The notes under the pieces are model-generated. The model worked only from the letters and a program-made list of their open reading frames with translations. It ran no database searches and was not told the DNA's origin. This document shows, in pieces, positions 6,691 to 21,163 of a stretch of 39,520 nt of DNA. The position numbers and the translations under genes were made by a program. The stretch comes from a virus. Within the stretch, counting starts at the first letter, position 1. Every line of letters begins with the position of its first letter. Location of the stretch: positions 1 to 39,520 of the IMG/VR virus record IMGVR_UViG_3300045988_112015; one strand, written 5' to 3'.

Positions 6691-6846
6691 TTCTAATAAC
6701 TAAAAATCCCGTCAGTACCGCTAATACTAACGGGAATGCAAGACATTTACTCACCCCGCATGGATTTGTAAGTGACCTGCAAGGTCATTATACCAAAATC
6801 CATATACATTTGTATACCCGGCCCCGCACGCCAGGAAGGATATATA

Positions 6847-8439
6847 ATGACACCAAAAAAGGCGGCAATTTACTGTCGCGTTTCCACTACCTATCAGGTA
6901 GACAAAGATTCCCTGCCCGTCCAGGAAGAAAGTCTGATTGCCTATACCAAACAAGTTCTCGGTATAGACGAATACGAATTATTCACGGACGCCGGCTATT
7001 CCGGTAAGAATACGGAGCGTCCCGCTTATCAGGATATGATGAGCCGCTGCCGGAATCACGAGTTTACGCATATACTTGTTTATAAGATCGACCGCATCAG
7101 CCGCAATCTGTTGGACTTTGCGACAATGTACGACGAATTGAAGAAACTCCATATTGTTTTTGTGAGCCGCAACGAACAGTTTGACACTTCTTCCGCCATC
7201 GGCGAGGCAATGCTCAAAATCATACTGATCTTTGCCGAGCTGGAACGGAAGATGACCAGTGAGCGCGTAAAAGGTGTTATGACCGCTCGTGCAAGAAAAG
7301 GATTATGGAACGGGGCCCGTATGCCGTTCGGGTACGATTGGGACAAGGAAAAAGAAATCCCCGCAATCAATCCCACAGAGGCCGCCGTTGTACGCAAGAT
7401 GTTCGACATGCTACTTGCCGGTGACGGTGTTTTTCGTGTATCCGTCTACCTTAACGAGAATAAAATACCGACTAAGCGCGGCGGCAGGTGGACACCCACT
7501 ACTGTCCGGCACATTGCCACTAATCCCATGTTTGCCGGTACACTGCGATATAATTATCGTTCCGCCGGCCGCGGAGAAATTAAACCGGAATCCGAATGGA
7601 TTATTCTTGAAGAGGCCCTGCCGGCTATTATATCCAAAGAGGAATTTAATCAAGTGCAGACACGTTTTAAAAAGCCGGGGCCACATGAACACCGGCGGAA
7701 GAATTATCACCCTTTTTCCACCTTATTGTATTGCAGTTGCGGACAGCACTTTATCTCCCGCAAAGACAGAGTTAGGAAGCGCACAGGTCTTTGTCCCAGC
7801 GTCTATACTTGTGCCGGCGTCCGCCATCATTGGGGATGTCACGAGCTGCAACCTAGTGATGTAACTTTGCTGCCGTTTGTCATCACGTATATACAGAATA
7901 TGATGCGCGTACAGATTGCTTCCCCTGCGTCCGCATCCACCATGAAAGAAATACTTCTTCACAACTTATCCGGAGTATCCGATATTAAGGACATTAAAGC
8001 TATATATCGCGCATACACTCGTTCCCATCCTGCCGCTTATGAGATGCCTAATTCTTCACCTACTATCGATCTTGCGGCCGCTGAACGTCATAAAATCGAA
8101 AGAGCGCTGGCGCGTTTGAAAGATCTTTATTTGTACGGTGACGGCACATTAAGCCCATCAGATTATGCGGACGAAAAGAAAAAGTTAGAAAACAAGCTTC
8201 GTTCTGCCCCCGCCCCCGTAAGTTCTACGGAAGATGTTGTAACGGACGCTATCAGTCATGCTTCATTACAAGCGTTACTTTCTGCCGACTCTATGAGTTA
8301 TCCGGAAATCATGAGTTATGTGGACGACAAAACAATTCATAATTTCCTGCTCCGCATCATTAACCGCATTACTGTTGCCGGCAGACGGGTACAATCCATT
8401 ACGTTTTCCAACGGCGTCACTCATACATTTATATATTAA
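6847..8439 (+). CDS. int: Large serine recombinase (integrase)
   Basis: AAIYCRVSTTYQ is the catalytic-Ser resolvase motif. It is followed by a recombinase domain and a Cys-rich zinc-ribbon region (CSCGQHF...C..YTC) and a coiled-coil tail. The ATG at 6847 has AGGAAGGA upstream. Confidence 0.95.
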   Translation: MTPKKAAIYCRVSTTYQVDKDSLPVQEESLIAYTKQVLGIDEYELFTDAGYSGKNTERPAYQDMMSRCRNHEFTHILVYKIDRISRNLLDFATMYDELKKLHIVFVSRNEQFDTSSAIGEAMLKIILIFAELERKMTSERVKGVMTARARKGLWNGARMPFGYDWDKEKEIPAINPTEAAVVRKMFDMLLAGDGVFRVSVYLNENKIPTKRGGRWTPTTVRHIATNPMFAGTLRYNYRSAGRGEIKPESEWIILEEALPAIISKEEFNQVQTRFKKPGPHEHRRKNYHPFSTLLYCSCGQHFISRKDRVRKRTGLCPSVYTCAGVRHHWGCHELQPSDVTLLPFVITYIQNMMRVQIASPASASTMKEILLHNLSGVSDIKDIKAIYRAYTRSHPAAYEMPNSSPTIDLAAAERHKIERALARLKDLYLYGDGTLSPSDYADEKKKLENKLRSAPAPVSSTEDVVTDAISHASLQALLSADSMSYPEIMSYVDDKTIHNFLLRIINRITVAGRRVQSITFSNGVTHTFIY

Positions 8440-10663: not shown

Positions 10664-11110
10664 TTATAACGCCCCCAATTCTTGGTTATAGTCCGTCATC
10701 GTTTGCGTATACTCTTCTTTGATTTCTGTCTGTAGCTCCTTGTCATCAAGTAGCACCGCCGTAATCATATTGTTCTTCAACTCGGTAAACCGTGGCTCGT
10801 ATTTAGCTGCTATTTTGACAGCTTCCGCGACCTTTTTCTCTTCTGCAGTCGGCTCCGGAGCGATATATTCAATCGGCTTCCCATTTGCACCTCGGATGTA
10901 ATTTCCGGTTACGTACTTATTAAAATCTTCTGCGGAAATAATCTCAATGACAGTCGCATCGGAAAACAGTTCTTTAGCTTCTTCTCTTAATATGTCAATC
11001 TTACCCTCATTTTTATCTTTTGTCGGATTAAACTCGCATATAAGCGATCCTACACGCTTTCCATCTGCAGCAAAACCAGCAATATAATATTCGACATTTG
11101 TATTATTCAT
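10664..11110 (-). CDS. Hypothetical protein (between fibre and lysis genes)
   Basis: 148-aa ORF with GGAGGA upstream. Confidence 0.6.
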   Translation of the reverse strand: MNNTNVEYYIAGFAADGKRVGSLICEFNPTKDKNEGKIDILREEAKELFSDATVIEIISAEDFNKYVTGNYIRGANGKPIEYIAPEPTAEEKKVAEAVKIAAKYEPRFTELKNNMITAVLLDDKELQTEIKEEYTQTMTDYNQELGAL

Positions 11111-11129
11111 TTCATCCTCCTGTTAAAAT

Positions 11130-11148
11130 AGCCTCCATAAAGGAGGCT
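11130..11148. terminator. Bidirectional hairpin AGCCTCC-ATAAA-GGAGGCT
   Basis: 7-bp perfect stem, T-rich on both sides. It sits between the fibre-cassette region and the next minus-strand gene. Its 3' arm also supplies a GGAGG RBS for the plus-strand small ORF. Confidence 0.5.
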
Positions 11149-11153
11149 TTATT

Positions 11154-11297
11154 ATGCGTAAACCTAACGGATACGGCTGTATTAAGAAACTAACTGGAAA
11201 TCGGAGGCGGCCTTTTGTTTTTGTAGTATCCGAGAATGGCAAGCAAAAGGCAGTCGATTACTTCTGTACACAAATCGAAATTGTAATTGGCAAATAA
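11154..11297 (+). pseudogene. 47-aa remnant resembling the N-terminal AP2-like DNA-binding domain of phage tyrosine integrases
   Basis: My translation is MRKPNGYGCIKKLTGNRRRPFVFVVSENGKQKAVDYFCTQIEIVIGK*. The NGYG.I.KL.G.RRRPF...ENGKQK...YF pattern is typical of that domain. No catalytic domain follows. Confidence 0.5.
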
Positions 11298-11307
11298 AGA
11301 GTGATAT

Positions 11308-11529
11308 CTAACTCTTGCCGACGGCAATCCATCGATAAGTTACACTTGTTGCACTTGCATTGTAAATCGTTGCCGTGGTATTGGTGCCGGAAGCTCCTAA
11401 CGGATGTGCACCGGACCCAACATCACCGGCTAAAATTTGAAAGCACTTACCAAAGCCAATAGGGAATTGGATAGTTGCAGATGTTCCGCTAACATCCCCA
11501 TTTCCCCACTGTTTAAATTTTTCCGATTG
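11308..11529 (-). other. Tail-fibre tip cassette 3 (start-less, stop-free 73 codons)
   Basis: QSEKFKQWGNGDVSGTSATIQFPIGFGKCFQILAGDVGSGAHPLGASGTNTTATIYNASATSVTYRWIAVGKS*. It is a paralogue of the fibre C-terminus (QWG ... WIAxGK). Confidence 0.7.
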
Positions 11530-11734
11530 CTACATACTGTGTAGATTGTGTCCATGTTGGCTGACTTGAATAAATTGCTATTGATCTCGTTGTTTTAAAT
11601 TGGGCACCATAACATATTGTTGCTTCTCCGGTATCGCCAGCTAAAACCAGTATCCCTTCACTTACCGCAACGGGGAGCGTAGCAACTATATGGGGACCGG
11701 TATAATCTGCAACTAATCCCCACTGTCTAAATTG
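11513..11734 (-). other. Tail-fibre tip cassette 2 (start-less, stop-free 73 codons)
   Basis: QFRQWGLVADYTGPHIVATLPVAVSEGILVLAGDTGEATICYGAQFKTTRSIAIYSSQPTWTQSTQYVAIGKI*. It is in the +1 frame relative to the fibre gene and overlaps its stop codon. Confidence 0.7.
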
Positions 11735-12890
11735 CTATTAGAAGCCAACAGAATACCGTCTGTCCATTGCCACCATATCCTTGACCTATTTCATAGTCAG
11801 TCGTGATATTAATAGTTGTTTTTGTGCATTCAGACCAATACGGGCATACAACAAAACCATTGAAATCCAGAGATCTTACAGTAACTTGAGCCGCAATAGC
11901 ATAATTTATGGGGATGGGAAGCTGAATGGAATGCTTGTTTCCATCTACCGTTAACACGGTACTTCCCCACTGTATAATTAGTCCACCAAAAAATGAGCCG
12001 AGGCATATATACCCGTTTCCCGCTAAGTTATATCTTACACCGGATGCCGTAAGCACCCATTTCAATAGCTGTCCGAACCAACTATTTTCTTGTAACGATG
12101 ATATAACGGTTATCATTTTCGTCAGTGCAAGTTGTTGGATAATGTGTACTGATCCCAGACTTAATTCGGGAATAACTCCCCATTCCCCCGATCCTTTTAA
12201 ATATTTATCTTGCTCGCCTTTTAGCGGTTTTGGCACTTTTCCGCCGGTGCCGTCTTTTGTAGCCGTCGCCCCTGTGAAATCTTCAAAAGTTCCCGCCAGG
12301 GCCGCCGCTTTATCTGCCGATGCTTTTGCGTCTTTTTTATATTGTTCCGCCGCGTTTTTTATTATCTCGGTATCTTTTTTCAAGCTTTCTACATTCTCTT
12401 TTAATCCAACCGTTTCATTTTTCGTTTCTTCCGTCTTTTCTTTTAGTTTTTCTACAGCGTTTTTAATTTCGTTGGTTTTGGCCAGTATTTCTATTTGCGC
12501 CTCTTTTCCCGCTTCTACCGCGTTTGCCGTTTCTTTTGCGATTTCTACATCGTATCCCATTTCCTGAAGAATCATAATCATCCAGTCGAGTTCTTTTTCA
12601 ATGGATATATACGGCATTTTGTTTGGTAAATCGACGTTCTGCTGCATTGGCGTACTGCGTATCAGTTTTATTTTGTTTGGTTTTTTTATCGGTTCACCCG
12701 CCACAGGATAGATATATTTATTTTCTTCTTTGTTGTACGTATAATTTGTTTCAATTTTTTTTTCACTTTCAAATTCATCCACAAGGTATCCGATAATATC
12801 CCCCGCGTCCCGGTACGGGTAAGGGAACGGGAACGACGTTGTTACGCCGTCCCCTTCATAGGTTATGCTTATTTTCGTTTCGTTTATCAT
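11727..12890 (-). CDS. Tail fibre / receptor-binding protein
   Basis: The N-terminus ISITYEGDGVTTSFPFPYPY is typical of podovirus fibre adaptor domains. A coiled-coil middle follows. The C-terminal GGLIIQWG...CWLLIAI tip domain is related to the two downstream cassettes. Confidence 0.8.
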   Translation of the reverse strand: MINETKISITYEGDGVTTSFPFPYPYRDAGDIIGYLVDEFESEKKIETNYTYNKEENKYIYPVAGEPIKKPNKIKLIRSTPMQQNVDLPNKMPYISIEKELDWMIMILQEMGYDVEIAKETANAVEAGKEAQIEILAKTNEIKNAVEKLKEKTEETKNETVGLKENVESLKKDTEIIKNAAEQYKKDAKASADKAAALAGTFEDFTGATATKDGTGGKVPKPLKGEQDKYLKGSGEWGVIPELSLGSVHIIQQLALTKMITVISSLQENSWFGQLLKWVLTASGVRYNLAGNGYICLGSFFGGLIIQWGSTVLTVDGNKHSIQLPIPINYAIAAQVTVRSLDFNGFVVCPYWSECTKTTINITTDYEIGQGYGGNGQTVFCWLLIAI

Positions 12891-15800
12891 TTGTTATCCC
12901 CCTTTTTATTTTTTCGTTTTTCCATATTTTTCCGTTCCTCTACCGTTTTATACCTCTTATCAAAAATGATTGAGGTCATCAGGTCCATAAGATTGCGGTC
13001 CGTATCAACTAACGAAAAGCGAACCAGTGTCCAGAATCCGTCCGTCAGTGTGTCGGAGAACCCGACATATCGATTACTTACGCGGCTTACGGCACGCCCG
13101 ATATCTGTCCAGTCTTTTCGGTCACTTGTAGCAGCTTCTACCGCATTAATCATTTCTTCAAATCCGGAGACGGCCAGCGGCGTAATGCCGTTTCCTTTGT
13201 ATCCTTCCAGCATGACGCTTACGGCTCCCTCTATGGCGTCGCGGGCAACCGGTATTCCCTGATCTGCGTTACGTATGGCCGTTAGGCCGAGTCGGCGCAG
13301 CATTTTATCCGGATCGTCCACTTCTCCCGCCACGGCGCTTCGGTACAGTGATTCAAATATCGTCGGCAATACGATCCAATACAGCGCGGCATTATATACG
13401 GCCATGCGGTTGCCGTTATCTTTCCAATTGTACCCGGCGGCAATAAGGGCGTTTAGCTGTGTATTACAATATGAGTAAAACGGGGTAAGTTGTCCGATAA
13501 GAGAGTTTTTACGCTGCACTTCTGCCTGGTCTTTGACCATTCCCGATCCATATACGGCCCGTACATTCGCATCCGCCGCGCTTACTGCGTTGCGCTCCAG
13601 TACATCTCTATTCAGTTCGCCCGCTTCCACCTGTTTTTGCATGGATTCATCATATGAGTGCTTCCATAGCGCCATTGACATCATAAGATCCGTTTCCGTG
13701 ATAAACCAGTACCCATACCGATTAACTGCATCTTTAACGCTTCTCGCCTTTTCTTTTGCTAGCCCCGTATTGGCTTGTACACTGATTTTCATATCTTGCT
13801 GGATGTCACGGTCCATGGTATTCATACGGGACCGCATCATGGGCGAATGTTCCATGACAAAGGCCCTGTTTGCGTTGTACGTATCGGTTCCTTTATAAAA
13901 GCCAAGCCCGAAATTAACCAGCGCTTTCACGGCTTGCGGCGCTCCTATTTTCCACATCATCGGGAAGATATTTAACGCATTTAGGGCCGCTGTTGTCGTA
14001 CGGAACATCATAACAGCGCCCGATGTATTCCGGCGCATCTGTTCCAGCATTTTACTTACGGTATCTTGTTTCTGTACATCCGTTTTCCAGCAGTCTTTCG
14101 CCCATTGTTTTATTTTTGCAAAGGTTTCTTTCCCGTATCTTTCTTCTACGGCCCGCTGTACTTCCGGATGATTGATCAGTTTATATACATCCGTTACCGC
14201 TTCACGCATGGCTATATGATGGATGGCTTCATTTACCGCCGCCGGCCATACGTCCAAGCGTAAATTCAGCTGCTGATTTTTTACTTCGGATACCCGTGAC
14301 TTGGTACTGCCCATGCCGATCGCCATAGTGGCATTACCGGACAACTGCTGCCTGATGATATCGTCGGCCTCAATGTCACTGCTACGGCTGCTTAATCTGC
14401 TGTCGTACTTAATAGGGTAGTATCCGCCCGTCAGTTTTCGGCCGTTAATCGTAAAAGACAATGCCCGGACTTTTCCCAGTCCTACCCCGTACAGATTTTC
14501 CTGCACTTTATTTCGTTCCGGCCAATACTGCCCGATCTGTTCCCAGATTTTCTCTATAAAATCCCAGTCTTTTTGTGTGAGCGCGCTCTCAAATATTTGC
14601 TGCACGTCGTATTCTTTTACAAGGTGGTAGTCGTGTTTTACGTCTTTATTGATGGTGGACAGTACACGCCGGCGCCCTTCCAGATTCCCCCAGTTTAGGG
14701 CCATACACATAACCTGTTCCCGTGTAAACCGTTCGGTAACGCCGACGGTATAGGCTTTTACGCTTCGCATGGTCTGCCATTCTTCCAAGCTGTACATGTT
14801 GTGTATCGCCGCAAACTCTTTGCAGGCTTTTTCTTTAAGGATGAGTTCTTTGTTTGATGCCTGGTTTATCGGCTCATACACCAATTGCATCCAGTCTTTC
14901 CCGAAGCGATTAAATATAGTTTCCAGTTTTGTCAATGATAATAGCGCATCGGACGCCCACTCTTTCGCCCTGCCGGTACTTGTCTTGTCGTTCTGCGCTT
15001 GCATCGCATTAAAGTCTTCAACCGGTTCAACGGTGTCAATTAAGCGCCTTGCCGCTTCTTCCATTCCTACCGACATGCCGTTGCTATCTGTCAATGTCGT
15101 TGCTTCGTATTCTCTGCGGGATACTTTATATATGACGTTCATGGCGGTTATCATGTCTTTAAACTGCGTCATCGGCATATTTTTGTAATCCTGTTTTTCG
15201 CTACTCATGACAAGCGCCCGGAGCCACGGGGCGACGATATCATCCGGTTTTGGTCCCGTACTTTCGTCCATTGCATAATCCGGTGACAGATCCCTGTAGA
15301 TGGATTCCCAGTTTATATCACCAGGCATTCCATCTTCTCCCAACGGTTTTATGCCGTCCTGGCTTCGTAGCCCGGTAACATACGCCAAATGCTGGATAAA
15401 GTAGCGGCTGTTGGCATTTAATTGCACGGGATCTTTGCGGCGACTAATGCGTTTTATCATTCCCAGCACGCCGTCCATCGGTTCATGCTGATCGTCCATA
15501 CGTCCGTTTTCGCCTTCCAGTTTTTTACGTACGTATTCCTGATTATCCTTGGCCGCCCGTGCCATGCAGTAGTATTTCAGGCTGTTGTTCTTAGCCAATA
15601 CAGCGTCTTTAAAGTTTCCCGACGCCATGAGTGCATCAGCCCGATGGCTTTCCGACTTTCCCTTTATTTCCCAGTGCCGCCACGTGGTAGCGTCGGCTAC
15701 CGTATACTGTTCCAGTTCTTCCTGTGCCGCTCTCAATGTCCGCATGTAATTCCCGTTCGTTGCGTCCCGCGCCGCATTTAACCCTTGCATAACTTCTTTC

Positions 15801-18800
15801 AGGGCCGCCTTTATGCTGTTAAGCTCCGCTTTTACATTCTGCTTCTGCAGCATTTTTGCTACAGATTGTCCTTTCTTCACATCTTCTTCCGATGCGACGT
15901 TTAATATCTGCTGCAGCCCTTTTGTCACTTCTTCTTCCGATTTTCCTTCCAGTTTATCCGTTTCCCGCATCGCCCGTACAGCTTCTGCGATATACCCGTT
16001 TATTTTCTTTCTCATGGCATACGCTTCCAGCTGTGCCAATCGCGCCTGTCCGCTCGTTGTGGCCAGTTCCGCATCAGCCGCCATACGTATATCTTCCGCC
16101 GTCGGCATCATATCTTCGTAAGCCTCACGCCGTTCTTCCATATACCGGTTTACCCGTTCTTCCAACGTTCCACCGGCTTTTTGCAATGCTTTTTCAAATT
16201 CCGCCGCATTTTCATACCCGTATGCTTTGAGGATATTTAACTTCTTATCATCTTGCGCGGAACGATATATAAGTTCCTGTTTATATATTTCGTTTTCTTC
16301 GGTCAGTTGTTTTTCATAATCAATACGTTCGGTTGCAAGACCACTTTCTTTTTGTGATTCCCACATGTCCTGCTGCGTCTGCATGATACCCGCCAACAGT
16401 TTTTCTTTTGCCCAGGCTTTTATTTTATCGTTCCATTCTTTTATCATCTCCCCTTCGCTGCCCGTGAGGTCCCCCGCAAATCCTTTACGGTCCCATGCGC
16501 TAAGTTCTCTTATTTTGGCCCAGTTTTCAATTTCATCGTCTGTAGCCAACATTCGGTCCATAACTCTTTTTACGTCTTCCGGCGGTTCTTTACCGAGGTT
16601 TTTTAAATCGCGATAAATCGATACAAGCCATGCTTTAAATTTCCTGAACGGGCTCTTAAGGGCTTCTGCCGGTGCCTTTCCTTCGGCTATATACCGCTCA
16701 AACCCTCTTGCAAAGCGTTCCTGTATCCATCGTTCTTCTGCTGCTTTAATAGCTACAACATCCCCCGATTTCCTTGCCGCTTCAATCTCTTGGATATATG
16801 CGCGGAATTCTTTTTCCCGTGCCGTTCCCACATAATCCGCCATATCTTCCGGCTTGTACGCCGCCCATTCCTGGATGGTGTTCCAGTCTTTCAGCAGCCG
16901 GTACGGTACGTTCTCATCCTGTACCATACGGCCCATTTCCGACAAATACATATGGGCCGCTTCATGGATAAATGAGGACTGATCCGCCGCATCAAATAAC
17001 CGGATAGCCCCCGTTGCCGATTCGTACGACGCTTTTATATCCTGATCGTATTTATTACGTATTTCAATCGCTTTGTCATCAAAGACCACATAACAGCGCC
17101 CTTCTTGCGTACCTTCATACGTAATTCCCTTAATTCCAAATTCATTTAACTTTAACGAGGCTTCCTTATCTCCGCCATATAAATCATACAGCGTTCCGTA
17201 TATACTTTGGCCGGTACTGTTTTTAAACATTCTTTTGGCGGTTTTTCGGGCCCCTTGTATGCCGACGGTTCCCACATCATCAATATCCCACAGTTGATCT
17301 TCGTCCATATTATCAATGAGCTTGTTTAATGCGTTTTTTACTTTTTTCGGCTGTTCGTCAAATGACTTCTGCTCATCCAGCAGCACATCCTCATCCGGGA
17401 TTTCCACTTCCAACAATCTTCCGCCTTTATGCCCTGTTCCTTCTCCCTGCTGTAAGATATCCACAGCTTTTTGTGCTTCGGCTATATATGCACCGCGGAA
17501 TTTTCCCTCTTTTAACTCTTTCTGCAAGGCACTAATCGCGGCGTCTTTTGTGCCGTGTGCTTCCAAGGCATCCAGGGCATACCCTACCGCTTCCCCATAT
17601 TTTGCGGTCTTTCCGTCTGTTTCCCAGTCTCCCGATTCACTAACGGTCCATATATCACCATTTAATTCAACAGCGCTTCCCTTACTGCCGAATGTGTCTT
17701 TATATGCTTCCGACACCTCTCTGTTTTGGGCAAAATACAATCCCCATCCATGCACTTGATTTCCTTCACCACTGCCTATGCCCGATAAATCAAACGCATT
17801 AAAATCATAAGGCGTCCCGTGCCATGCGCGTTGATAGTATCCCGGATATTGTTCTTTTAATTTGACAAGATTTTCTTCATTTGGTATATTAGATTCAAAA
17901 ATAAGACCAGCGATGGATTCATCGGGCATGGCGGAATATACCGTCTCCGATTTTAACCATTGTCTGGTCTTATTTTTGTTTACATACTCTAATTTTCCCT
18001 CTTTTATTTTATCGAAAAAATACTTATATCTCGGCTTTTTTTGTTCCCCCTTTTTCTTGGGTTCATACGTCGGCTCATACGCGGATATCATTAAATTGGC
18101 AATTTCACCAGTTTGACGAATTTTAGTATCCAGTTCCAACGGCACTATTACATTAGATCCTGTTTTCCCTGTAAGGTCCACAACTATAATTTTTCGTTTT
18201 TGTCCGCCTTTTCCGTTATATGTATCCAGTATCATCAGCGGATCTGCCAGCGCTCTCGGCAGCCGTTTTAAAAGTTCCGGGGATATTTCATCACTGTGCC
18301 TGTTTTTTAAAATTTTACCGAGTTCAAACAAGGATATTTTTATCGGCAGGACTTCTCCACCTACTAATTTCATAACCAACGGAGTTGTCATGACATCGAC
18401 GACTTTTTCTTTTAATTCATTGCTCATGAATTTGTCGATTGTCTTCATAAATGCTTGTTCGTCTCTTGTAAGCTTTTCTTCCGGCGTGATTGTTTGGAAA
18501 AAATTTCCGGTCCCTTGCCCCATGACAACCGGATGTGCCGTCATGAAGTCTTTCGCCGTATACAATGTATCGCCATATTCCTGTCGTATCTTCGCCCACG
18601 TTTCCGCCAGCCGGGCGTATATATAGGCGTTTTCTTTTGCGGCGGACTGCACGGCTTTCGGCCCCTGTTCCAACGTTTGTGCTACTTTTCGGTATACTTC
18701 CGCACCTTCTTTAGACAGCGATTTGCGCAGGGCATAATCGCTGTTATTCAATTCCGCAATTTTGTCTTTCAGTCCTTCTACCGCTTCATATTTTTCTTTC

Positions 18801-21163
18801 GCCGCCTGCACCGCTTCATTCCACTCTTCCAATCTTTCCGGAGTGGTTGCGGCCAGCTCTTTATATTCGTTTTTATACGCTACGTCCAGCATTTCCGCTT
18901 TTGTCGCTTTGCGGCCCAGTTCTTTATACATATCACTGTACCACGGTTCATTTTCCGACACACGGATTCCCCTGCCGCTTCCCGTATTGTTGTGTCCGTC
19001 TATATCCGCCGTGATAATGCTTACGCCTTCGGGCTGATAATTCCAGTAGTAATTAAAGTTTATCGCGTCTTCATAATTCTTCCGGGCTTCTTTTACGGAT
19101 TCTTTATATCCTTCTTCCAGATCATACGGATTGCGGCTGATGATATCCGCTGCCGCTTCTTGTACCTGCGGATCGGCATCGGCAAAATGATCTTTTAATA
19201 TTTCGCCTGTAAGGGCGTCTTTTTTATTGGCTGCCAACTCGGCTATTTCTTTTCTCATGTTTTCCAGCCGCGCGGCCCGATCTTCCAGTGCTGCCCGATG
19301 GATACCTTTTTGTGTCATTGTTGTGGCCCGCATCAAGGTATCCGTATCCATGCTTTCATCCGCAAGCTGCGTAAACACGCCTGTCGGGATAACGATATCC
19401 GTTCCTTTTTCAATCGCCGTGTCCACCTGTTCCGCCGTTACCATACCTTTATTTACAATGTCGGTCAGGACGGCTACGCCTTTATCCGTTCTTGCCAGTT
19501 CCTGGGCATCCACGTACAATTCTTCCATGCCTGATTTTTCCGCCTGGGCCTGGATGACATTACGATATACTTCCGGATTGGTTTGCGCCAATTTGTTTGT
19601 TTTTTTATCTTCTATCAGCCTTGTAATGGCATCCTGTTCCACCTGGCGCTGGTATAATTGTCGCCAGTTTTCCACTCTCGCACCGGCAACGGCTTTGGTG
19701 GTGTGATATTCTCCTATCATGCGCGGGCCCACTCCAACCGCACCCATACCGATAACAGCCGGGACGGCCTGTACCATGGCGTCTATCGCATTTTTAAGTA
19801 CTTCGTCCGGGCTGTGTATTTCACTTTCGCTTCGGTTAATATACGCTTCCGCATTATCGGCCAGATCGTTTACAATCTGCTGTGACCCTTCTTCCGCAAG
19901 TTCCGCCGCACTGCCTCTTGCCCACTGTTTACCGCCCGATACCAATGCCATCCGCATCAATGCGGACTCTCCCGCATCCACAATGGAGCGCTGTGCCGCC
20001 GCGCTATTTAATATGGCTTTAGCCGTATTCTTCCCCCATGCGGCGGTAATAGGCTTTGTCGCTACATGCAGCAATCCTACTTCAATCGCTGCATTTAACG
20101 CGCCTGTAGCTGTACTGTCTATCAGTGCATTCTTTCTTGTGTAAGTTTTGTTTCCTGCGGCGTCTTTACGATTCATGAGTTCCCAATACCGGGACGCCGC
20201 ACTTTGTTTCCATACTTCTTCGCCGTATCCGACTCTAAATCCCAAAGACGCACCTTGGGCCGCTCCTGCTAAAATGGTTCCTATCGCAACAGGCGTGCCA
20301 GCTCCTAATGTAGCCCCTTCAATTCCCGCCGCCAGTGCCACGGACGCCGTTGCCCCGACAACCGCCCCTTGGGCCGCTCTTTTTGATGCCCGTAATGCTT
20401 GATTGCCCATTACCGTTAATTGCCGGATTGTATCATAGACAATTTTTCCCATTTGCGTATCCGGCCGGTCCTGTTCCTGATATTCCTGCAATCTTCTGCT
20501 TATGGTATCGATTTCCGGACGCACGGATTCCATATCTTCCCCGTTATATACTCTCATTTGCGCGTCGTACAGTTTTACCATATCCGATCCGGAATTAAAC
20601 GCATTTACGGCTGTTTGCCAATCCGCTACGGCTTTATTTTTGCTTTCCTTTAAATTATCAAAGATGACCTGCGTTGCCGTCATATCCGCATAATTTTTGA
20701 GGGCAATTGAGGCCCCCACGGGATCCCTTTGCCGCATTTCCACCAGTTCCGGATACAAGCTGTCAAGGTTCGCCGCACTAAATCTTTGCCCGCGCATGTA
20801 CGCCCAATTGATAGACTCTTTATTTATTTCCCGTACCCGTTCCAGTGATTCCGGATTGTCCAGTAAAAACTGCGGAGATATCCCCACTCGTTCGCCAAGT
20901 CGTTTGGCTTCCGACATGGTTCCTTCGTCGCCGCTTATCATATTGCGATAAATTTCTCCCGCGCTGTCTACAGCACGTTCAATCAACGTGCCGCCGTAAT
21001 CATTTTCGGCACGCCATTTTTTACCTTCATCGTCGGTATGTTCAAGTTCCAGACTCCATCGTTGTTCCGGTTCACCAGTTGCCTGACGATCCGTTACAAT
21101 ATACCCTTTTGCGGTTTGTTCCGCCAAGGCTTTTAATTCTTTTTCTCTTTCTTCTGATAGCAT
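12887..21163 (-). CDS. Giant (2758 aa) internal virion / ejection protein of the 'polyvalent protein' type
   Basis: Occupies the gp16-like position after the gp14- and gp15-like genes. Features:
- Gly/Ala-rich hydrophobic segments at aa ~262-310 and 465-480.
- ...NRHSDEISPELLKRLPRALADPLMIL module at aa ~925-1035.
- WHGTPYDFNAFD...GWGLYFA at aa 1114-1144.
- HEAAH at aa 1400-1404. Confidence 0.75.
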   Translation of the reverse strand: MLSEEREKELKALAEQTAKGYIVTDRQATGEPEQRWSLELEHTDDEGKKWRAENDYGGTLIERAVDSAGEIYRNMISGDEGTMSEAKRLGERVGISPQFLLDNPESLERVREINKESINWAYMRGQRFSAANLDSLYPELVEMRQRDPVGASIALKNYADMTATQVIFDNLKESKNKAVADWQTAVNAFNSGSDMVKLYDAQMRVYNGEDMESVRPEIDTISRRLQEYQEQDRPDTQMGKIVYDTIRQLTVMGNQALRASKRAAQGAVVGATASVALAAGIEGATLGAGTPVAIGTILAGAAQGASLGFRVGYGEEVWKQSAASRYWELMNRKDAAGNKTYTRKNALIDSTATGALNAAIEVGLLHVATKPITAAWGKNTAKAILNSAAAQRSIVDAGESALMRMALVSGGKQWARGSAAELAEEGSQQIVNDLADNAEAYINRSESEIHSPDEVLKNAIDAMVQAVPAVIGMGAVGVGPRMIGEYHTTKAVAGARVENWRQLYQRQVEQDAITRLIEDKKTNKLAQTNPEVYRNVIQAQAEKSGMEELYVDAQELARTDKGVAVLTDIVNKGMVTAEQVDTAIEKGTDIVIPTGVFTQLADESMDTDTLMRATTMTQKGIHRAALEDRAARLENMRKEIAELAANKKDALTGEILKDHFADADPQVQEAAADIISRNPYDLEEGYKESVKEARKNYEDAINFNYYWNYQPEGVSIITADIDGHNNTGSGRGIRVSENEPWYSDMYKELGRKATKAEMLDVAYKNEYKELAATTPERLEEWNEAVQAAKEKYEAVEGLKDKIAELNNSDYALRKSLSKEGAEVYRKVAQTLEQGPKAVQSAAKENAYIYARLAETWAKIRQEYGDTLYTAKDFMTAHPVVMGQGTGNFFQTITPEEKLTRDEQAFMKTIDKFMSNELKEKVVDVMTTPLVMKLVGGEVLPIKISLFELGKILKNRHSDEISPELLKRLPRALADPLMILDTYNGKGGQKRKIIVVDLTGKTGSNVIVPLELDTKIRQTGEIANLMISAYEPTYEPKKKGEQKKPRYKYFFDKIKEGKLEYVNKNKTRQWLKSETVYSAMPDESIAGLIFESNIPNEENLVKLKEQYPGYYQRAWHGTPYDFNAFDLSGIGSGEGNQVHGWGLYFAQNREVSEAYKDTFGSKGSAVELNGDIWTVSESGDWETDGKTAKYGEAVGYALDALEAHGTKDAAISALQKELKEGKFRGAYIAEAQKAVDILQQGEGTGHKGGRLLEVEIPDEDVLLDEQKSFDEQPKKVKNALNKLIDNMDEDQLWDIDDVGTVGIQGARKTAKRMFKNSTGQSIYGTLYDLYGGDKEASLKLNEFGIKGITYEGTQEGRCYVVFDDKAIEIRNKYDQDIKASYESATGAIRLFDAADQSSFIHEAAHMYLSEMGRMVQDENVPYRLLKDWNTIQEWAAYKPEDMADYVGTAREKEFRAYIQEIEAARKSGDVVAIKAAEERWIQERFARGFERYIAEGKAPAEALKSPFRKFKAWLVSIYRDLKNLGKEPPEDVKRVMDRMLATDDEIENWAKIRELSAWDRKGFAGDLTGSEGEMIKEWNDKIKAWAKEKLLAGIMQTQQDMWESQKESGLATERIDYEKQLTEENEIYKQELIYRSAQDDKKLNILKAYGYENAAEFEKALQKAGGTLEERVNRYMEERREAYEDMMPTAEDIRMAADAELATTSGQARLAQLEAYAMRKKINGYIAEAVRAMRETDKLEGKSEEEVTKGLQQILNVASEEDVKKGQSVAKMLQKQNVKAELNSIKAALKEVMQGLNAARDATNGNYMRTLRAAQEELEQYTVADATTWRHWEIKGKSESHRADALMASGNFKDAVLAKNNSLKYYCMARAAKDNQEYVRKKLEGENGRMDDQHEPMDGVLGMIKRISRRKDPVQLNANSRYFIQHLAYVTGLRSQDGIKPLGEDGMPGDINWESIYRDLSPDYAMDESTGPKPDDIVAPWLRALVMSSEKQDYKNMPMTQFKDMITAMNVIYKVSRREYEATTLTDSNGMSVGMEEAARRLIDTVEPVEDFNAMQAQNDKTSTGRAKEWASDALLSLTKLETIFNRFGKDWMQLVYEPINQASNKELILKEKACKEFAAIHNMYSLEEWQTMRSVKAYTVGVTERFTREQVMCMALNWGNLEGRRRVLSTINKDVKHDYHLVKEYDVQQIFESALTQKDWDFIEKIWEQIGQYWPERNKVQENLYGVGLGKVRALSFTINGRKLTGGYYPIKYDSRLSSRSSDIEADDIIRQQLSGNATMAIGMGSTKSRVSEVKNQQLNLRLDVWPAAVNEAIHHIAMREAVTDVYKLINHPEVQRAVEERYGKETFAKIKQWAKDCWKTDVQKQDTVSKMLEQMRRNTSGAVMMFRTTTAALNALNIFPMMWKIGAPQAVKALVNFGLGFYKGTDTYNANRAFVMEHSPMMRSRMNTMDRDIQQDMKISVQANTGLAKEKARSVKDAVNRYGYWFITETDLMMSMALWKHSYDESMQKQVEAGELNRDVLERNAVSAADANVRAVYGSGMVKDQAEVQRKNSLIGQLTPFYSYCNTQLNALIAAGYNWKDNGNRMAVYNAALYWIVLPTIFESLYRSAVAGEVDDPDKMLRRLGLTAIRNADQGIPVARDAIEGAVSVMLEGYKGNGITPLAVSGFEEMINAVEAATSDRKDWTDIGRAVSRVSNRYVGFSDTLTDGFWTLVRFSLVDTDRNLMDLMTSIIFDKRYKTVEERKNMEKRKNKKGDNK

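What the first reader, a model, noticed from the sequence alone, without database searches (positions are those of the whole stretch)
11308..11978. Two start-less, stop-free alternative tail-fibre tip cassettes stacked behind the fibre gene, phased +1/+1 and joined by a conserved ACAGTGGGGA core
**What the sequence shows**
- Directly after the fibre stop (TAG, 11729-11727, minus strand) lie two more open frames of exactly 73 codons each: 11734->11513 and 11529->11308. Neither has its own start codon or RBS.
- Both are paralogues of the fibre's own last ~80 aa:
  - tip1 ...LIIQWGSTVLTVDGNKHSIQLPIPI...FCWLLIAI*
  - tip2 FRQWGLVADYTGPHIVATLPVAV...VLAGDTG...QYVAIGKI*
  - tip3 FKQWGNGDVSGTSATIQFPIGF...ILAGDVG...YRWIAVGKS*
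- The QWG of all three is encoded by the same 10-nt core. On the plus strand it is TCCCCACTGT at 11964-11973, 11717-11726 and 11503-11512.
- The stop of each unit abuts the core of the next (ATT TAG ACAGTGGGGA and ATT TAA ACAGTGGGGA).
- Each successive unit is in the +1 frame of the previous one.

**Why it looks maintained.** Under a uniform-codon null, one 73-codon frame stays stop-free about 3% of the time (my arithmetic, (61/64)^73). Two in a row therefore argue that the cassettes are maintained or recent rather than decaying.

**Possible mechanisms**
- (a) Deletion between the direct cores would fuse the shaft in frame to tip 2 or tip 3. This would be a one-way host-range ratchet.
- (b) A +1 frameshift at AUU-UAR, formally like the prfB CUU-UGA site, would append the tips in tandem.
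- (c) The cassettes are leftovers from successive tip replacements at a recombination hot spot.

I do not know of a described system with this direct-repeat, frame-staggered layout.
Basis: partly seen in the sequence, partly recalled or inferred. Interest (0 to 1): 0.8.

Follow-up and report, generated by a model that had tools for sequence, protein, structure and literature searches.

The report
Invertase-less relic of a tail-fibre shufflon
The two silent fibre-tip cassettes are what remains of a DNA-inversion switch (a shufflon) that swaps phage receptor-binding tips. This copy has lost its recombinase, yet close wild relatives have still changed tip by a precise deletion between the repeated cores.

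Summary
Three direct copies of ACAGTGGGGA (11964, 11717, 11503) head the expressed tip T1 and two start-less open cassettes, T2 and T3.

The layout is not a new kind of system. In Acidaminococcus/Megasphaera-type prophages the same constant fibre end is followed by 2-9 such cassettes on both strands and a 341-aa tyrosine recombinase. Near-identical loci differ by perfect core-to-core inversions. This is a shufflon of the published Rin type.

In the window the recombinase gene is reduced to 42 codons, fused to the last codons of an inverted fourth cassette (47-aa ORF, 11154..11297). No inverted core is left, so inversion is impossible.

The "+1/+1 phasing" is generic. The site is TANACAGTGGGGA and its TAN serves as the preceding cassette's stop (32 of 39 junctions).

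T2 and T3 are real tips. T2 is 100% identical in DNA to a cassette that is expressed in L021, and T3 is expressed in L008.

Contigs L085 and L086 are 99.9% identical to the window but lack exactly 461 nt between cores s0 and s2, giving shaft-T3 and keeping the same recombinase remnant.

Frameshifting is unsupported.

The parts
12162..12890 (-). Fibre gene, lineage-specific N-terminal part (aa 1-243): a T7-type fibre N-terminus followed by a coiled-coil shaft.
   Evidence: - PHROG 1640 tail protein, E 4e-12. Pfam Phage_T7_tail is sub-threshold.
- 91% identical to P0002 of a sister phage that has a different distal half.
11977..12143 (-). Constant region of the shufflon (aa ~250-305, ...SSLQENSWFGQLLKWVLTASGVRYNLAGNGYICLGSFFGGLII). 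It is shared with fibres of myovirus-like prophages.
   Evidence: - 82-84% nt identity to L001/L020.
- The same segment ends >100 homologous fibres that carry 33 different tip clusters.
11964..11976 (-). Recombination site s0 (TATACAGTGGGGA), inside the gene. It encodes I-Q-W-G.
   Evidence: It is the left end point of the 461-nt deletion seen in L085/L086.
11727..11972 (-). T1, the expressed tip (81 aa plus TAG).
   Evidence: -.
- The model has the gp53/R-pyocin foot fold.
- About 64% aa identity to the T1-type tips of P0003/P0004.
11717..11729 (-). Site s1 (TAGACAGTGGGGA). Its TAG is the fibre stop codon.
11513..11725 (-). T2, a silent cassette (70 aa plus TAA) with no start codon.
   Evidence: - 100% nt identity to T2 of L012/L013/L021.
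- The same cassette is the expressed tip in L021.
- 87% aa identity to the C-terminus of P0088.
11503..11515 (-). Site s2 (TAAACAGTGGGGA). Its TAA is the T2 stop.
   Evidence: It is the right end point of the deletion seen in L085/L086.
11308..11511 (-). T3, a silent cassette (67 aa plus TAG) with no start codon.
   Evidence: - Pfam Gp53-like_C, 32.2 bits.
- 95% aa identity to the expressed C-termini of P0090, P0046 and P0064-66.
- It is the expressed tip of P0124 in L085/L086.
11280..11297 (+). The last 5 codons plus stop (IVIGK*) of a fourth cassette, T4, in inverted orientation.
   Evidence: Identical to the end of T4 in L012, with a 34-nt identical run. T4-type tips end ...SFIVIGK.
11154..11279 (+). 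The first 42 codons of the shufflon tyrosine recombinase gene. The remaining ~300 codons are deleted.
   Evidence: - tblastn of the 341-aa L012 recombinase: 71% identity over aa 1-45, E 7e-17. It is the only hit in the window below E 1.
- Sequence comparison.
10664..11110 (-). Conserved 148-aa gene that lies just beyond the recombinase in every related locus. It marks the right border of the transferred module. Function unknown.
   Evidence: PHROG 32639, E 9e-7.

Best explanation
The locus is a tail-fibre shufflon that has lost its invertase.

**The intact system (seen in relatives)**
- It occurs in prophages of Acidaminococcus/Megasphaera-type hosts.
- A constant fibre body ends in ...GGLIIQWG.
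- The codons for I-Q-W-G form a 13-nt asymmetric site, TANACAGTGGGGA.
- Downstream lie 2-9 start-less tip cassettes, each headed by the same site, on both strands.
- A 341-aa tyrosine recombinase is encoded next to them.
- It is inferred to exchange DNA between inverted sites, which puts a different tip in frame behind the body.
- Because the TAN of each site serves as the stop codon of the cassette before it, same-strand cassettes are always stacked stop-to-core and offset by +1.

**What happened in the window**
- A podovirus-like temperate phage acquired the distal fibre module.
- It sat in the configuration body-T1-T2-T3 followed by an inverted T4.
- A ~1.4-kb deletion then removed most of T4, the last (inverted) site and codons 43-341 of the recombinase.
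- What remains is three direct sites and two silent but intact cassettes.
- Inversion is no longer possible.

**Residual switching**
- The only remaining route is loss of the DNA between two direct sites.
- That has happened in nature: sister genomes carry body-T3 after a precise 461-nt site-to-site deletion.

**Shown versus inferred**
- Shown: the anatomy, the inversions in relatives, the recombinase deletion and the deletion variant.
- Inferred: that the recombinase catalyses the inversions, that the tips determine host range, and how the 461-nt deletion arose.
- For the deletion, slippage at the 11-nt identical stretch is the likeliest cause. A recombinase supplied by a co-resident prophage is the alternative.
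For: **Relatives have cassettes plus a recombinase**
- L007, L008, L009, L012 and L013 have the fibre gene, then 700-900 nt holding cassettes on both strands, each starting at CAGTGGGG.
- Next comes a 341-aa Phage_integrase protein (PF00589, E 4e-18), then a homologue of the window's 148-aa gene.

**Inversions at the cores**
- L012 and L013 encode the identical fibre and differ by one SNP in 4.9 kb.
- In addition, a 442-nt segment bounded by inverted cores is a perfect reverse complement, with 0 mismatches.
- L021 holds the same four cassettes in a third order.

**Survey of 53 IMG/VR loci**
- 11 have a full-length recombinase and 9 have only an N-terminal remnant.
- 17 contigs end 1-234 nt after the constant region, as expected if assemblies break at a variable junction.

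**Window against the L012 shufflon**
- Window 11735->11280 matches the inverted L012 block at 95%.
- T2 is identical in DNA. T3 differs at 20 nt, 15 of them at third codon positions.

**Recombinase remnant**
- The 47-aa ORF 11154..11297 is recombinase codons 1-42 plus the last T4 codons.
- There is no other tyrosine recombinase in the window and no inverted core.

**Site geometry**
- In 32 of 39 same-strand successions the stop codon ends exactly 1 nt before CAG.

**Deletion variant**
- P0124 is the window-lineage body plus T3.
- L085 and L086 match the window up to 11963 and resume at the s2 core. They carry an identical 47-aa remnant ORF.
- L086 differs from the full-stack contig L088 by 1 nt in 4918 upstream and 0 in 1317 downstream.
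- The full stack is present and intact in 10 contigs of 3 haplotypes.

**Independent parallels**
- L080 has three direct cassettes, then recombinase codons 1-8 fused to the end of an inverted cassette.
- L022 has a 16-codon remnant.

**Published precedent**
- The Rin shufflon (PMC6109161).
Against: - No inversion, and no recombinase activity, has been observed directly. All evidence is comparative, from assemblies.
- The direction of the 461-nt difference (deletion rather than insertion of T1-T2) rests on parsimony. The full stack is found in three haplotypes, and the short form is nested in one of them.
- T2 is 100% identical to a myophage cassette while its neighbours are only 68% (T1) and 90% (T3) identical. 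This hints at recent cassette traffic. If that traffic happened after the invertase was lost, the locus would not be entirely inert.
- No body-T2 variant was found.
- Diversity within the lineage is too low (7 SNPs or fewer per 2.2 kb) to test selection on the silent cassettes.
Confidence: 0.88

Rival explanations
1. The array is still serviced in trans. A shufflon recombinase from a co-resident myovirus-like prophage acts on the three direct sites. It excises T1-T2 (or T1 alone) as a circle and may insert cassettes. On this reading the 461-nt deletion, and the arrival of T2, are site-specific events rather than accidents.
For: - The deletion end points lie exactly in the sites.
- The 100%-identical T2 block is bounded by sites s1 and s2, between 68% and 90% flanks.
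- Prophages with cognate sites and recombinases are common in the same host group.
- The recombinase ends at residue 341, 13 residues after its catalytic-domain match (179-328), so it has no long C-terminal extension. In Rci, an extra C-terminal domain is thought to restrict the enzyme to inversion (bioRxiv 10.1101/2024.10.25.620183).
Against: - Intact shufflons keep up to three or more cassettes flanked by direct sites (L021, L023). This argues that the enzyme rarely recombines direct sites.
- Replication slippage would put the deletion end points in the same 11 identical nucleotides.
- No co-resident recombinase was shown in the samples that hold the lineage.
- No excised circle has been seen.
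Confidence: 0.25
2. One reading: the cassettes are scars of successive tip replacements by homologous or illegitimate recombination at a hot spot. Each new tip was inserted in front of the previous one. No inversion system was involved.
For: - The QWG boundary is a sharp mosaic junction across >100 fibres.
- Cassettes have different identities to their relatives.
Against: - The same T2-stop-core-T3 junction exists, base for base, inside intact shufflons (L007, L012).
- The window block is collinear with an inverted L012 block, including the tail of T4.
- A recombinase remnant sits exactly where the recombinase gene lies in relatives.
- The window order is reachable from L012 by one inversion between s1 and s3 (an inference from the map).
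Confidence: 0.06
3. One reading: programmed +1 frameshifting at AUU-UAR appends T2 (and T3) to the fibre, giving tandem tips.
For: Each stop is followed by an open +1 frame.
Against: - The +1 offset is generic to the recombination site: 32 of 39 junctions, with TAA, TAG and TGA all used.
- None of the 120 homologous fibres has two QWG tips in one chain.
- By eye, no Shine-Dalgarno-like stimulator precedes either stop.
- The tip is a terminal knob in the solved relatives.
Confidence: 0.02

Closest known systems
Rin shufflon of Bifidobacterium prophages (Mavrich et al. 2018, PMC6109161), also reported in Eggerthella lenta prophages (PMC8778435)
   Same: - A constant receptor-binding-protein gene is followed by small start-less variable C-terminal cassettes.
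- A short asymmetric repeat (11 bp there, 13 nt here) precedes each cassette.
- Two direct sites are present, one inside the gene and one immediately after its stop.
- A flanking tyrosine recombinase lacks an arm-binding domain.
- Inversions are seen between near-identical genomes.
- The E. lenta cassettes carry H-type lectin domains. The tips modelled here also give weak matches to H-type lectins.
   Different: - The site sequence differs (TTCCCTAACCC there, TANACAGTGGGGA here).
- Host phylum and phage types differ: myovirus-like prophages, and here a podovirus-like phage.
- The tips are of the gp53/R-pyocin foot type.
- Homology of the recombinase to Rin was not tested.
- The window copy has no recombinase and no inverted site, so it cannot invert. 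The only switching seen in this lineage is by deletion.
R64 (IncI1) shufflon: Rci recombinase with sfx sites acting on pilV
   Same: - A multiple-inversion system driven by a tyrosine recombinase.
- Asymmetric sites: one arm conserved, the other variable.
- It selects among alternative C-terminal segments.
- Direct sites coexist without being deleted.
   Different: - The target is a pilus adhesin on a plasmid.
- tblastn of the recombinase against 72,556 plasmids returned only 56 records, and no IncI1-type Rci appeared among the 12 records listed.
- The recombinase here has no long C-terminal extension.
Serine-invertase tail-fibre switches: Gin (Mu), Cin (P1), Min (p15B), and the Gin-driven fibre shufflon of the Enterobacter phage FR-phi (PMC13418256)
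   Same: - Alternative tail-fibre C-termini are selected by site-specific inversion.
- Min and FR-phi have several cassettes.
   Different: - They use a serine invertase, with different sites.
- The only serine recombinase in the window (6772..8439, 555 aa) is of the large integrase type and lies 3 kb away.
Tail-fibre shufflon of BV01-like Phocaeicola vulgatus phages (preprint, PMC13596623)
   Same: A recombinase-flanked multi-cassette inversion region overlaps the distal end of a tail-fibre gene, with directional 10-bp motifs.
   Different: - Different motif (TGGGAGAACT), host and fibre.
- It is active, with all configurations seen in reads.

Membership tests
Tyrosine-recombinase fibre/RBP shufflon (Rin type) | A constant 5' gene body followed by several start-less variable 3' cassettes. 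| tested here: met
   - Window: body plus T1, T2 and T3.
- Relatives: 2-9 cassettes.
Tyrosine-recombinase fibre/RBP shufflon (Rin type) | A short asymmetric repeat heads every cassette, with one copy inside the gene and one right after its stop. | tested here: met
   Consensus TANACAGTGGGGA from 104 cassettes. The stop-to-core offset is 1 nt in 32 of 39 junctions.
Tyrosine-recombinase fibre/RBP shufflon (Rin type) | Sites present in inverted orientation, so that inversion can occur. | tested here: not met
   - Window: all three sites are direct and there is no inverted copy, even allowing 1 mismatch.
- Met in relatives L007-L013, L016-L024 and others.
Tyrosine-recombinase fibre/RBP shufflon (Rin type) | An adjacent tyrosine recombinase gene. 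| tested here: not met
   - Window: only codons 1-42 remain, and there is no other PF00589 protein.
- Met in relatives: 341 aa, PF00589, E 4e-18.
Tyrosine-recombinase fibre/RBP shufflon (Rin type) | Rearrangements at the sites between otherwise identical genomes. | tested here: met
   - Relatives: L012 and L013 differ by a perfect 442-nt inversion, and L021 shows a third order.
- Window lineage: no inversion, only a 461-nt site-to-site deletion.
Tyrosine-recombinase fibre/RBP shufflon (Rin type) | Recombinase homologous to Rin. | not testable with these tools
   - No Rin sequence was on hand.
- No Bifidobacterium appears among the organisms named in the tblastn search of the phage collection.
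R64-type shufflon (Rci/sfx) | Recombinase of the Rci family. | tested here: inconclusive
   - tblastn against PLSDB at E <= 1e-3 returned only 56 records.
- The 12 records listed include three Escherichia coli entries of 4.8-4.9 Mb (chromosome-sized) and no IncI1 plasmid.
- 44 further records, including one more Escherichia, were not inspected.
Serine-invertase fibre switches (Gin/Cin/Min/Pin) | A small serine invertase next to the invertible segment. | tested here: not met
   The recombinase is of tyrosine type in relatives. The window's only serine recombinase is a 555-aa Resolvase+Recombinase protein at 6772..8439.
Gp53-like_C / R-pyocin fibre foot (receptor-binding knob) | Pfam PF21882 match above the gathering score. 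| tested here: inconclusive
   T3: 32.2 bits (passes 24.9). T1: 22.8 bits (below). T2: no hit. T2 is linked to T3 by hhalign, P = 2e-5.
Gp53-like_C / R-pyocin fibre foot (receptor-binding knob) | The same fold as solved members. | tested here: met
   - The constant+T1 model has pLDDT 77.5. The P0090 (T3) model has block-mean pLDDT 68-85 over its last 80 residues.
- Both match 6ct8, 6cl6, 6cxb, 6cl5 and 4mtm at E 5e-7 to 5e-5.
- T2 was not modelled.
Programmed +1 frameshift site (prfB-like) | A shift site with an in-frame stop, an upstream stimulator, and a fused product. | tested here: not met
   - A stop followed by an open +1 frame is present.
- The same geometry is generic to the recombination site.
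- No tandem-tip proteins occur among 120 homologues.
- No stimulator was seen by eye. Translation itself is not testable here.
Integron | An IntI-type integrase, an attI site, and cassettes ending in folded attC sites. | tested here: not met
   - The recombinase scores far below the integron-integrase cut-off (28.9 bits against 265).
- The sites are 13-nt linear repeats, and cassettes are gene fragments fused in frame to a body.

The most novel reading that the evidence does not exclude
Tip cassettes circulate between unrelated phages of one host as units bounded by the 13-nt sites, somewhat as integron cassettes do. Arrays that have lost their own invertase are still serviced in trans by recombinases of co-resident prophages. 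The prophages of a strain would then share a communal pool of receptor-binding tips, and the window's stack would be a live client of that pool rather than a fossil.

The hints are:
- the 100%-identical T2 block, bounded by sites and lying between 68% and 90% flanks;
- the site-to-site deletion variant;
- the presence of the same module in myovirus-like and podovirus-like phages.
Probability: 0.15. Interest if true: 0.7.

Novelty: new member of a known kind. Interest (0 to 1): 0.42.

Why it matters
**It resolves the puzzle.** An apparently unprecedented "frame-staggered cassette stack" is explained by a known principle.

**It documents a large shufflon family for which I found no published description.**
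- It occurs in gut and oral Negativicutes phages.
- The sample holds 170 distinct cassette sequences in 82 clusters, with up to 9 cassettes per locus.
- The recombination site doubles as the Q-W-G codons and as the stop codon.

**For annotation**
- Start-less open frames behind a fibre gene, together with a truncated integrase-like ORF, should be read as shufflon parts.
- Contig breaks right after a fibre's constant region are a signature of such loci (17 of 53 here).

**For phage biology**
- The invertase is lost repeatedly, in at least six different truncations.
- A locked array can still change receptor-binding tip by a one-way deletion. This is relevant to predicting host range from sequence.

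Tried and rejected
- **blastn of the fibre region against GenBank phages:** no match. tblastn of constant+T1: no match. No deposited phage carries this fibre family.
- **Exact-pattern scans** of metagenome and IMG/VR contigs with the window's s0 context (GGTGGACTAATTATACAGTGGGGA): 12 loci, none of the window lineage. They served only as extra examples.
- **Exact look-up of the predicted body-T2 and body-T3 proteins:** neither exact sequence is in the collection. The body-T3 variant was found only because the cluster listing showed a 373-aa member that differs by two shaft substitutions.
- **Selection on the silent cassettes within the lineage:** no power, with 7 SNPs or fewer per 2.2 kb.
- **Promoter and terminator scan of 10900-12100:** nothing above the shuffled expectation.
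- **Rci relationship:** no IncI1-type hit among the listed plasmid records.
- **Integron and frameshift readings:** rejected for the reasons given in the membership table.
- **Two adjacent "387-aa genes" in L089:** a coincidence. The first is the C-terminal fragment of the giant upstream protein.
- **Host of the window phage:** not determined. The genome scan only names hosts of the intact shufflons (Acidaminococcus, Megasphaera).
Full report
**1.

The fibre gene is 11727..12890 on the minus strand (387 aa). Its stop, TAG (11729-11727), is followed by two open frames of 73 codons, 11734->11513 and 11529->11308. Neither has a usable start codon. The 10-mer ACAGTGGGGA (fibre sense) occurs exactly three times in the 39.5-kb window, always on the fibre strand. 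In each case it encodes the Q-W-G at the head of a tip. Allowing one mismatch adds only two unrelated hits and no inverted copy. With the window's composition, a 73-codon frame stays open about 1% of the time.

I name the tips as follows:

| Tip | Coordinates | Length | State |
|---|---|---|---|
| T1 | 11972->11727 | 81 aa | expressed |
| T2 | 11725->11513 | 70 aa | silent |
| T3 | 11511->11308 | 67 aa | silent |

**2. The cassettes are real tips**

- T3 passes the Pfam Gp53-like_C threshold. T1 is just under it. T2 has no direct hit.
- Among the 120 best homologues of the fibre, T2 is 87% identical to the true C-terminus of P0088.
- T3 is 95% identical to the true C-termini of P0090, P0046 and P0064-66.
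- In both cases the alignment starts exactly at QWG and runs to the last residue.
- T2 and T3 are homologous over their full length (hhalign P = 2e-5). T1 resembles them in sequence only at the start.
- AlphaFold models of constant+T1 and of the T3-bearing P0090 share the same six-strand topology and the same five best PDB matches. These are the R1/R2 pyocin fibre feet and AP22 gp53, E 5e-7 to 5e-5.
- More than 100 of the 120 fibres share the segment ...SWFGQLLKMVLTASGV.YN...GY.C.GSFFGGLIIQWG. After it they diverge into 33 tip clusters.

**3. What the layout is**

I looked up where the fibres that express T2-like, T3-like and T1-like tips are encoded. They lie in myovirus-like prophages. The fibre gene is followed by 700-900 nt with no called gene, then a 341-aa Phage_integrase-family protein on the opposite strand. 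After that comes a homologue of the window's 148-aa gene. The "empty" stretch holds further tip cassettes on both strands, each beginning at CAGTGGGG.

L012 and L013 encode the identical fibre and differ by one SNP in 4.9 kb. In addition, the 442 nt between an inverted pair of cores is a perfect reverse complement. L021 carries the same four cassettes (99% identity) in a third order: body-T2-T1-T4, then inverted T3. This is a multiple-inversion system, that is, a shufflon.

Genome hits name Acidaminococcus intestini, other Acidaminococcus species, and Megasphaera as hosts. Arrays hold 2 to 9 cassettes (L023 has nine, L019 eight). From the loci and proteins fetched I counted 170 distinct cassette sequences in 82 clusters at 50% identity.

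The 53 IMG/VR loci with the constant region fall into these classes:

| Class | Loci |
|---|---|
| Full-length recombinase | 11 |
| N-terminal recombinase remnant only | 9 |
| No recombinase within 2.5 kb or more | 8 |
| Too short to tell | 8 |
| Contig ends 1-234 nt after the constant region | 17 |

The last class is what an assembler does at a junction that varies within the population.

**4. Why the stops abut the cores and the frames step by +1**

Aligning 104 distinct cassettes gives the site T(97%) A(85%) N A(93%) CAGTGGGG A(96%). In the expressed gene the left part reads ATT-ATA-CAG (I-I-Q). Behind a cassette it reads TAA-A-CAG, TAG-A-CAG or TGA-A-CAG. In 32 of 39 cases where one cassette follows another on the same strand, the stop ends exactly 1 nt before CAG.

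The phasing is therefore a consequence of the site carrying the stop codon. It is not a frameshift signal. None of the 120 homologous fibres has two tips in tandem.

**5. What happened in the window**

The window has no tyrosine recombinase. The only tblastn hit of the L012 enzyme below E 1 covers residues 1-45 at 11154..11288 (71% identity, E 7e-17). The window's one recombinase is a 555-aa large serine recombinase at 6772..8439.

The 47-aa ORF 11154..11297 (+) reads MRKPNGYGCIKKLTGNRRRPFVFVVSENGKQKAVDYFCTQIE-IVIGK*. The first 42 codons are the recombinase N-terminus. The last five codons, the stop and the following bases are identical to the end of cassette T4 of L012.

Window 11735->11280 is collinear with the inverted L012 block 4142->3687 at 95% identity. 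Window 11236->10600 matches the start of the recombinase gene plus the 145-aa gene of L012 at 75%.

- Starting from the L012 map, one inversion between s1 and the last site gives body-T1-T2-T3, then inverted T4, the last site and the recombinase.
- A deletion of about 1.4 kb from near the end of T4 to recombinase codon 42 then gives the window. This is an inference.

The phage itself is podovirus-like, with a T7-type portal, a GP7 capsid protein and a T7-type fibre N-terminus. Its sister P0002 is 91% identical over the first 243 residues but has a different distal half and no stack. The distal fibre module therefore came from the myovirus-like group.

Loss of the invertase is recurrent. Remnants of 124, 79, 70, 50 and 37 residues occur in other loci. 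L080 independently shows the window's layout: three direct cassettes, then recombinase codons 1-8 fused to the last 16 codons of an inverted cassette. L022 has a 16-codon remnant.

**6. Are the silent cassettes decaying?**

- T2 is identical in DNA to T2 of L012, L013 and L021.
- T3 differs from theirs at 20 positions, 15 of them third codon positions (14 synonymous against 3 non-synonymous codons). Its divergence therefore accumulated under purifying selection.
- The full stack with the same remnant is present, with both frames open, in 10 contigs that form three haplotypes. Two of these contigs (L002, L003) are identical to the window.
- Diversity is too low for a selection test. The three SNPs in T1 are all non-synonymous. 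T2 has one non-synonymous SNP in one contig. T3 has none.

**7. A natural deletion variant**

The 90% cluster of the fibre contains P0124 (373 aa). It is the lineage's body, with two shaft substitutions, joined at QWG to a T3 identical to the window's. Its contigs are L085 (38.8 kb) and L086 (seen in two samples).

- Both match the window at 99.9% up to 11963 and resume at the s2 core. They lack exactly 461 nt (247 + 214).
- Ten nucleotides after the new stop they carry the identical 47-aa remnant ORF.
- L086 differs from the full-stack contig L088 by 1 nt in 4918 upstream and 0 in 1317 downstream. It shares that haplotype's shaft markers.
- The recombinase-T4 junction is shared, so the short form arose after the invertase was lost. 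Because the full stack occurs in three haplotypes and the short form is nested in one, deletion is the parsimonious direction.
- The end points lie in the 11 nt shared by s0 and s2 (ACAGTGGGGAA). Slippage, or a recombinase supplied in trans, would give the same product. I cannot tell them apart.
- A 15-nt overlap is too short for a false join if, as I understand (not checked here), these assemblers use k-mers of about 31. The contigs run through the junction in independent samples.

No body-T2 form was found. A more distant member of the lineage (L087, 94% identity) carries a fifth tip, followed directly by the 148-aa gene with no remnant.

**8. Comparison with known systems**

The Rin shufflon of Bifidobacterium prophages has the same architecture. 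It has a constant RBP gene, tandem small variable cassettes and an 11-bp asymmetric repeat before each. Two direct sites lie one inside the gene and one immediately after its 3' end. It has an arm-less tyrosine recombinase, and inversions are seen between genomes (PMC6109161). It was later reported in Eggerthella lenta prophages, with H-type lectin cassettes (PMC8778435).

Other fibre shufflons use serine invertases (Min, and Gin in FR-phi; PMC13418256). Another flanking recombinase is reported in BV01-like phages (PMC13596623). In the R64 shufflon, site asymmetry is thought to restrict Rci to inversion (bioRxiv 10.1101/2024.10.25.620183). The recombinase here gave no IncI1-type hit among the 12 plasmid records listed. 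Its relation to Rin could not be tested.

I found no paper on this system in Negativicutes phages. No deposited phage carries this fibre.

**9. Verdict**

- The finding is real and its anatomy was read accurately, but it is not a new kind of system.
- It is an invertase-less relic of a Rin-type tail-fibre shufflon from a family for which I found no published description.
The frameshift idea is not supported.
- One point is unexplained. T2 is 100% identical to a myophage cassette, and the identical block is bounded by the sites, while its neighbours are 68% and 90% identical. This leaves open that cassettes still move between phages at these sites.

Noticed in passing
window 11513-11716 compared with L012/L013/L021: T2 is 100% identical (204/204 nt) to the T2 of a myovirus-like shufflon. 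The adjacent T1 is 68% identical, T3 ~90%, and the constant region 75-82%. The identical block is bounded by the recombination sites, which suggests recent cassette-level transfer between unrelated phages.
   Followed up: partly
L020-L072 (IMG/VR loci): 17 of 53 viral contigs carrying the constant region end 1-234 nt after it. This looks like a signature of assembly breaking at a population-variable junction.
   Followed up: partly
L017, L020/L001, L040/47/49/50/52/54, L065, L068, L079, L022, L080: The invertase gene is repeatedly truncated to an N-terminal stub of differing length (8 to 124 codons), usually with loss of all silent cassettes. The stub is probably retained because its start lies ~45 nt from the divergent 145/148-aa gene.
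   Followed up: partly
L019 (Megasphaera hexanoica chromosome), L062, L023: Arrays of 8-9 cassettes. L019 and L062 hold the same cassettes in different orientations. In L062 the frame behind the body stops after 14 codons.
   Followed up: no
window 12887-21163 (-): A 2758-aa protein lies directly upstream of the fibre, overlapping it at ATGA. Logan/ENA annotation marks a MuF_C domain. The 2794-aa homologue in the sister phage has ADP-ribosyltransferase-type hits (ART-PolyVal, faint; AcrIF11_ADP_ribosyl). It is probably a giant ejected virion protein.
   Followed up: no
window 6772-8439 (+); L088 8316-9164, L004 6716-7284: A large serine recombinase (Resolvase + Recombinase domains) is probably the integrase. 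In long contigs the prophage end with the lysis genes abuts a MiaB-like radical-SAM gene.
   Followed up: no
window 11860, 11926, 11960 (T1): All three SNPs that distinguish the lineage's haplotypes inside the expressed tip are non-synonymous (N>S, I>T, T>A). The numbers are too small for a test.
   Followed up: partly
window 10664-11110 (-) and homologues in L001, L007, L008, L012: A 145-148-aa protein of unknown function (PHROG 32639) always lies just beyond the invertase and travels with the distal fibre module. It could be a fibre-assembly factor.
   Followed up: no
L087 4001-5472: A 94%-identical relative of the window phage carries a fifth tip (QWGSNAHGWVTF..., 66 aa), followed directly by the 148-aa gene, with no cassettes and no invertase stub. 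Its identity to the window breaks exactly at the core.
   Followed up: partly
GenBank phages: Butyrivibrio phages Arawn/Idris/Closwp03, Ruminococcus gnavus phages: The closest recombinase homologues in deposited phages (26-32% identity) sit mid-genome. In the Butyrivibrio phages they are annotated as hypothetical. I did not check whether they flank fibre cassettes.
   Followed up: no
window 11130-11148: A 7-bp hairpin (AGCCTCC/GGAGGCT) overlaps the ribosome-binding site of the invertase stub and lies just upstream of the 148-aa gene. The terminator-like count in the region did not exceed the shuffled expectation.
   Followed up: no
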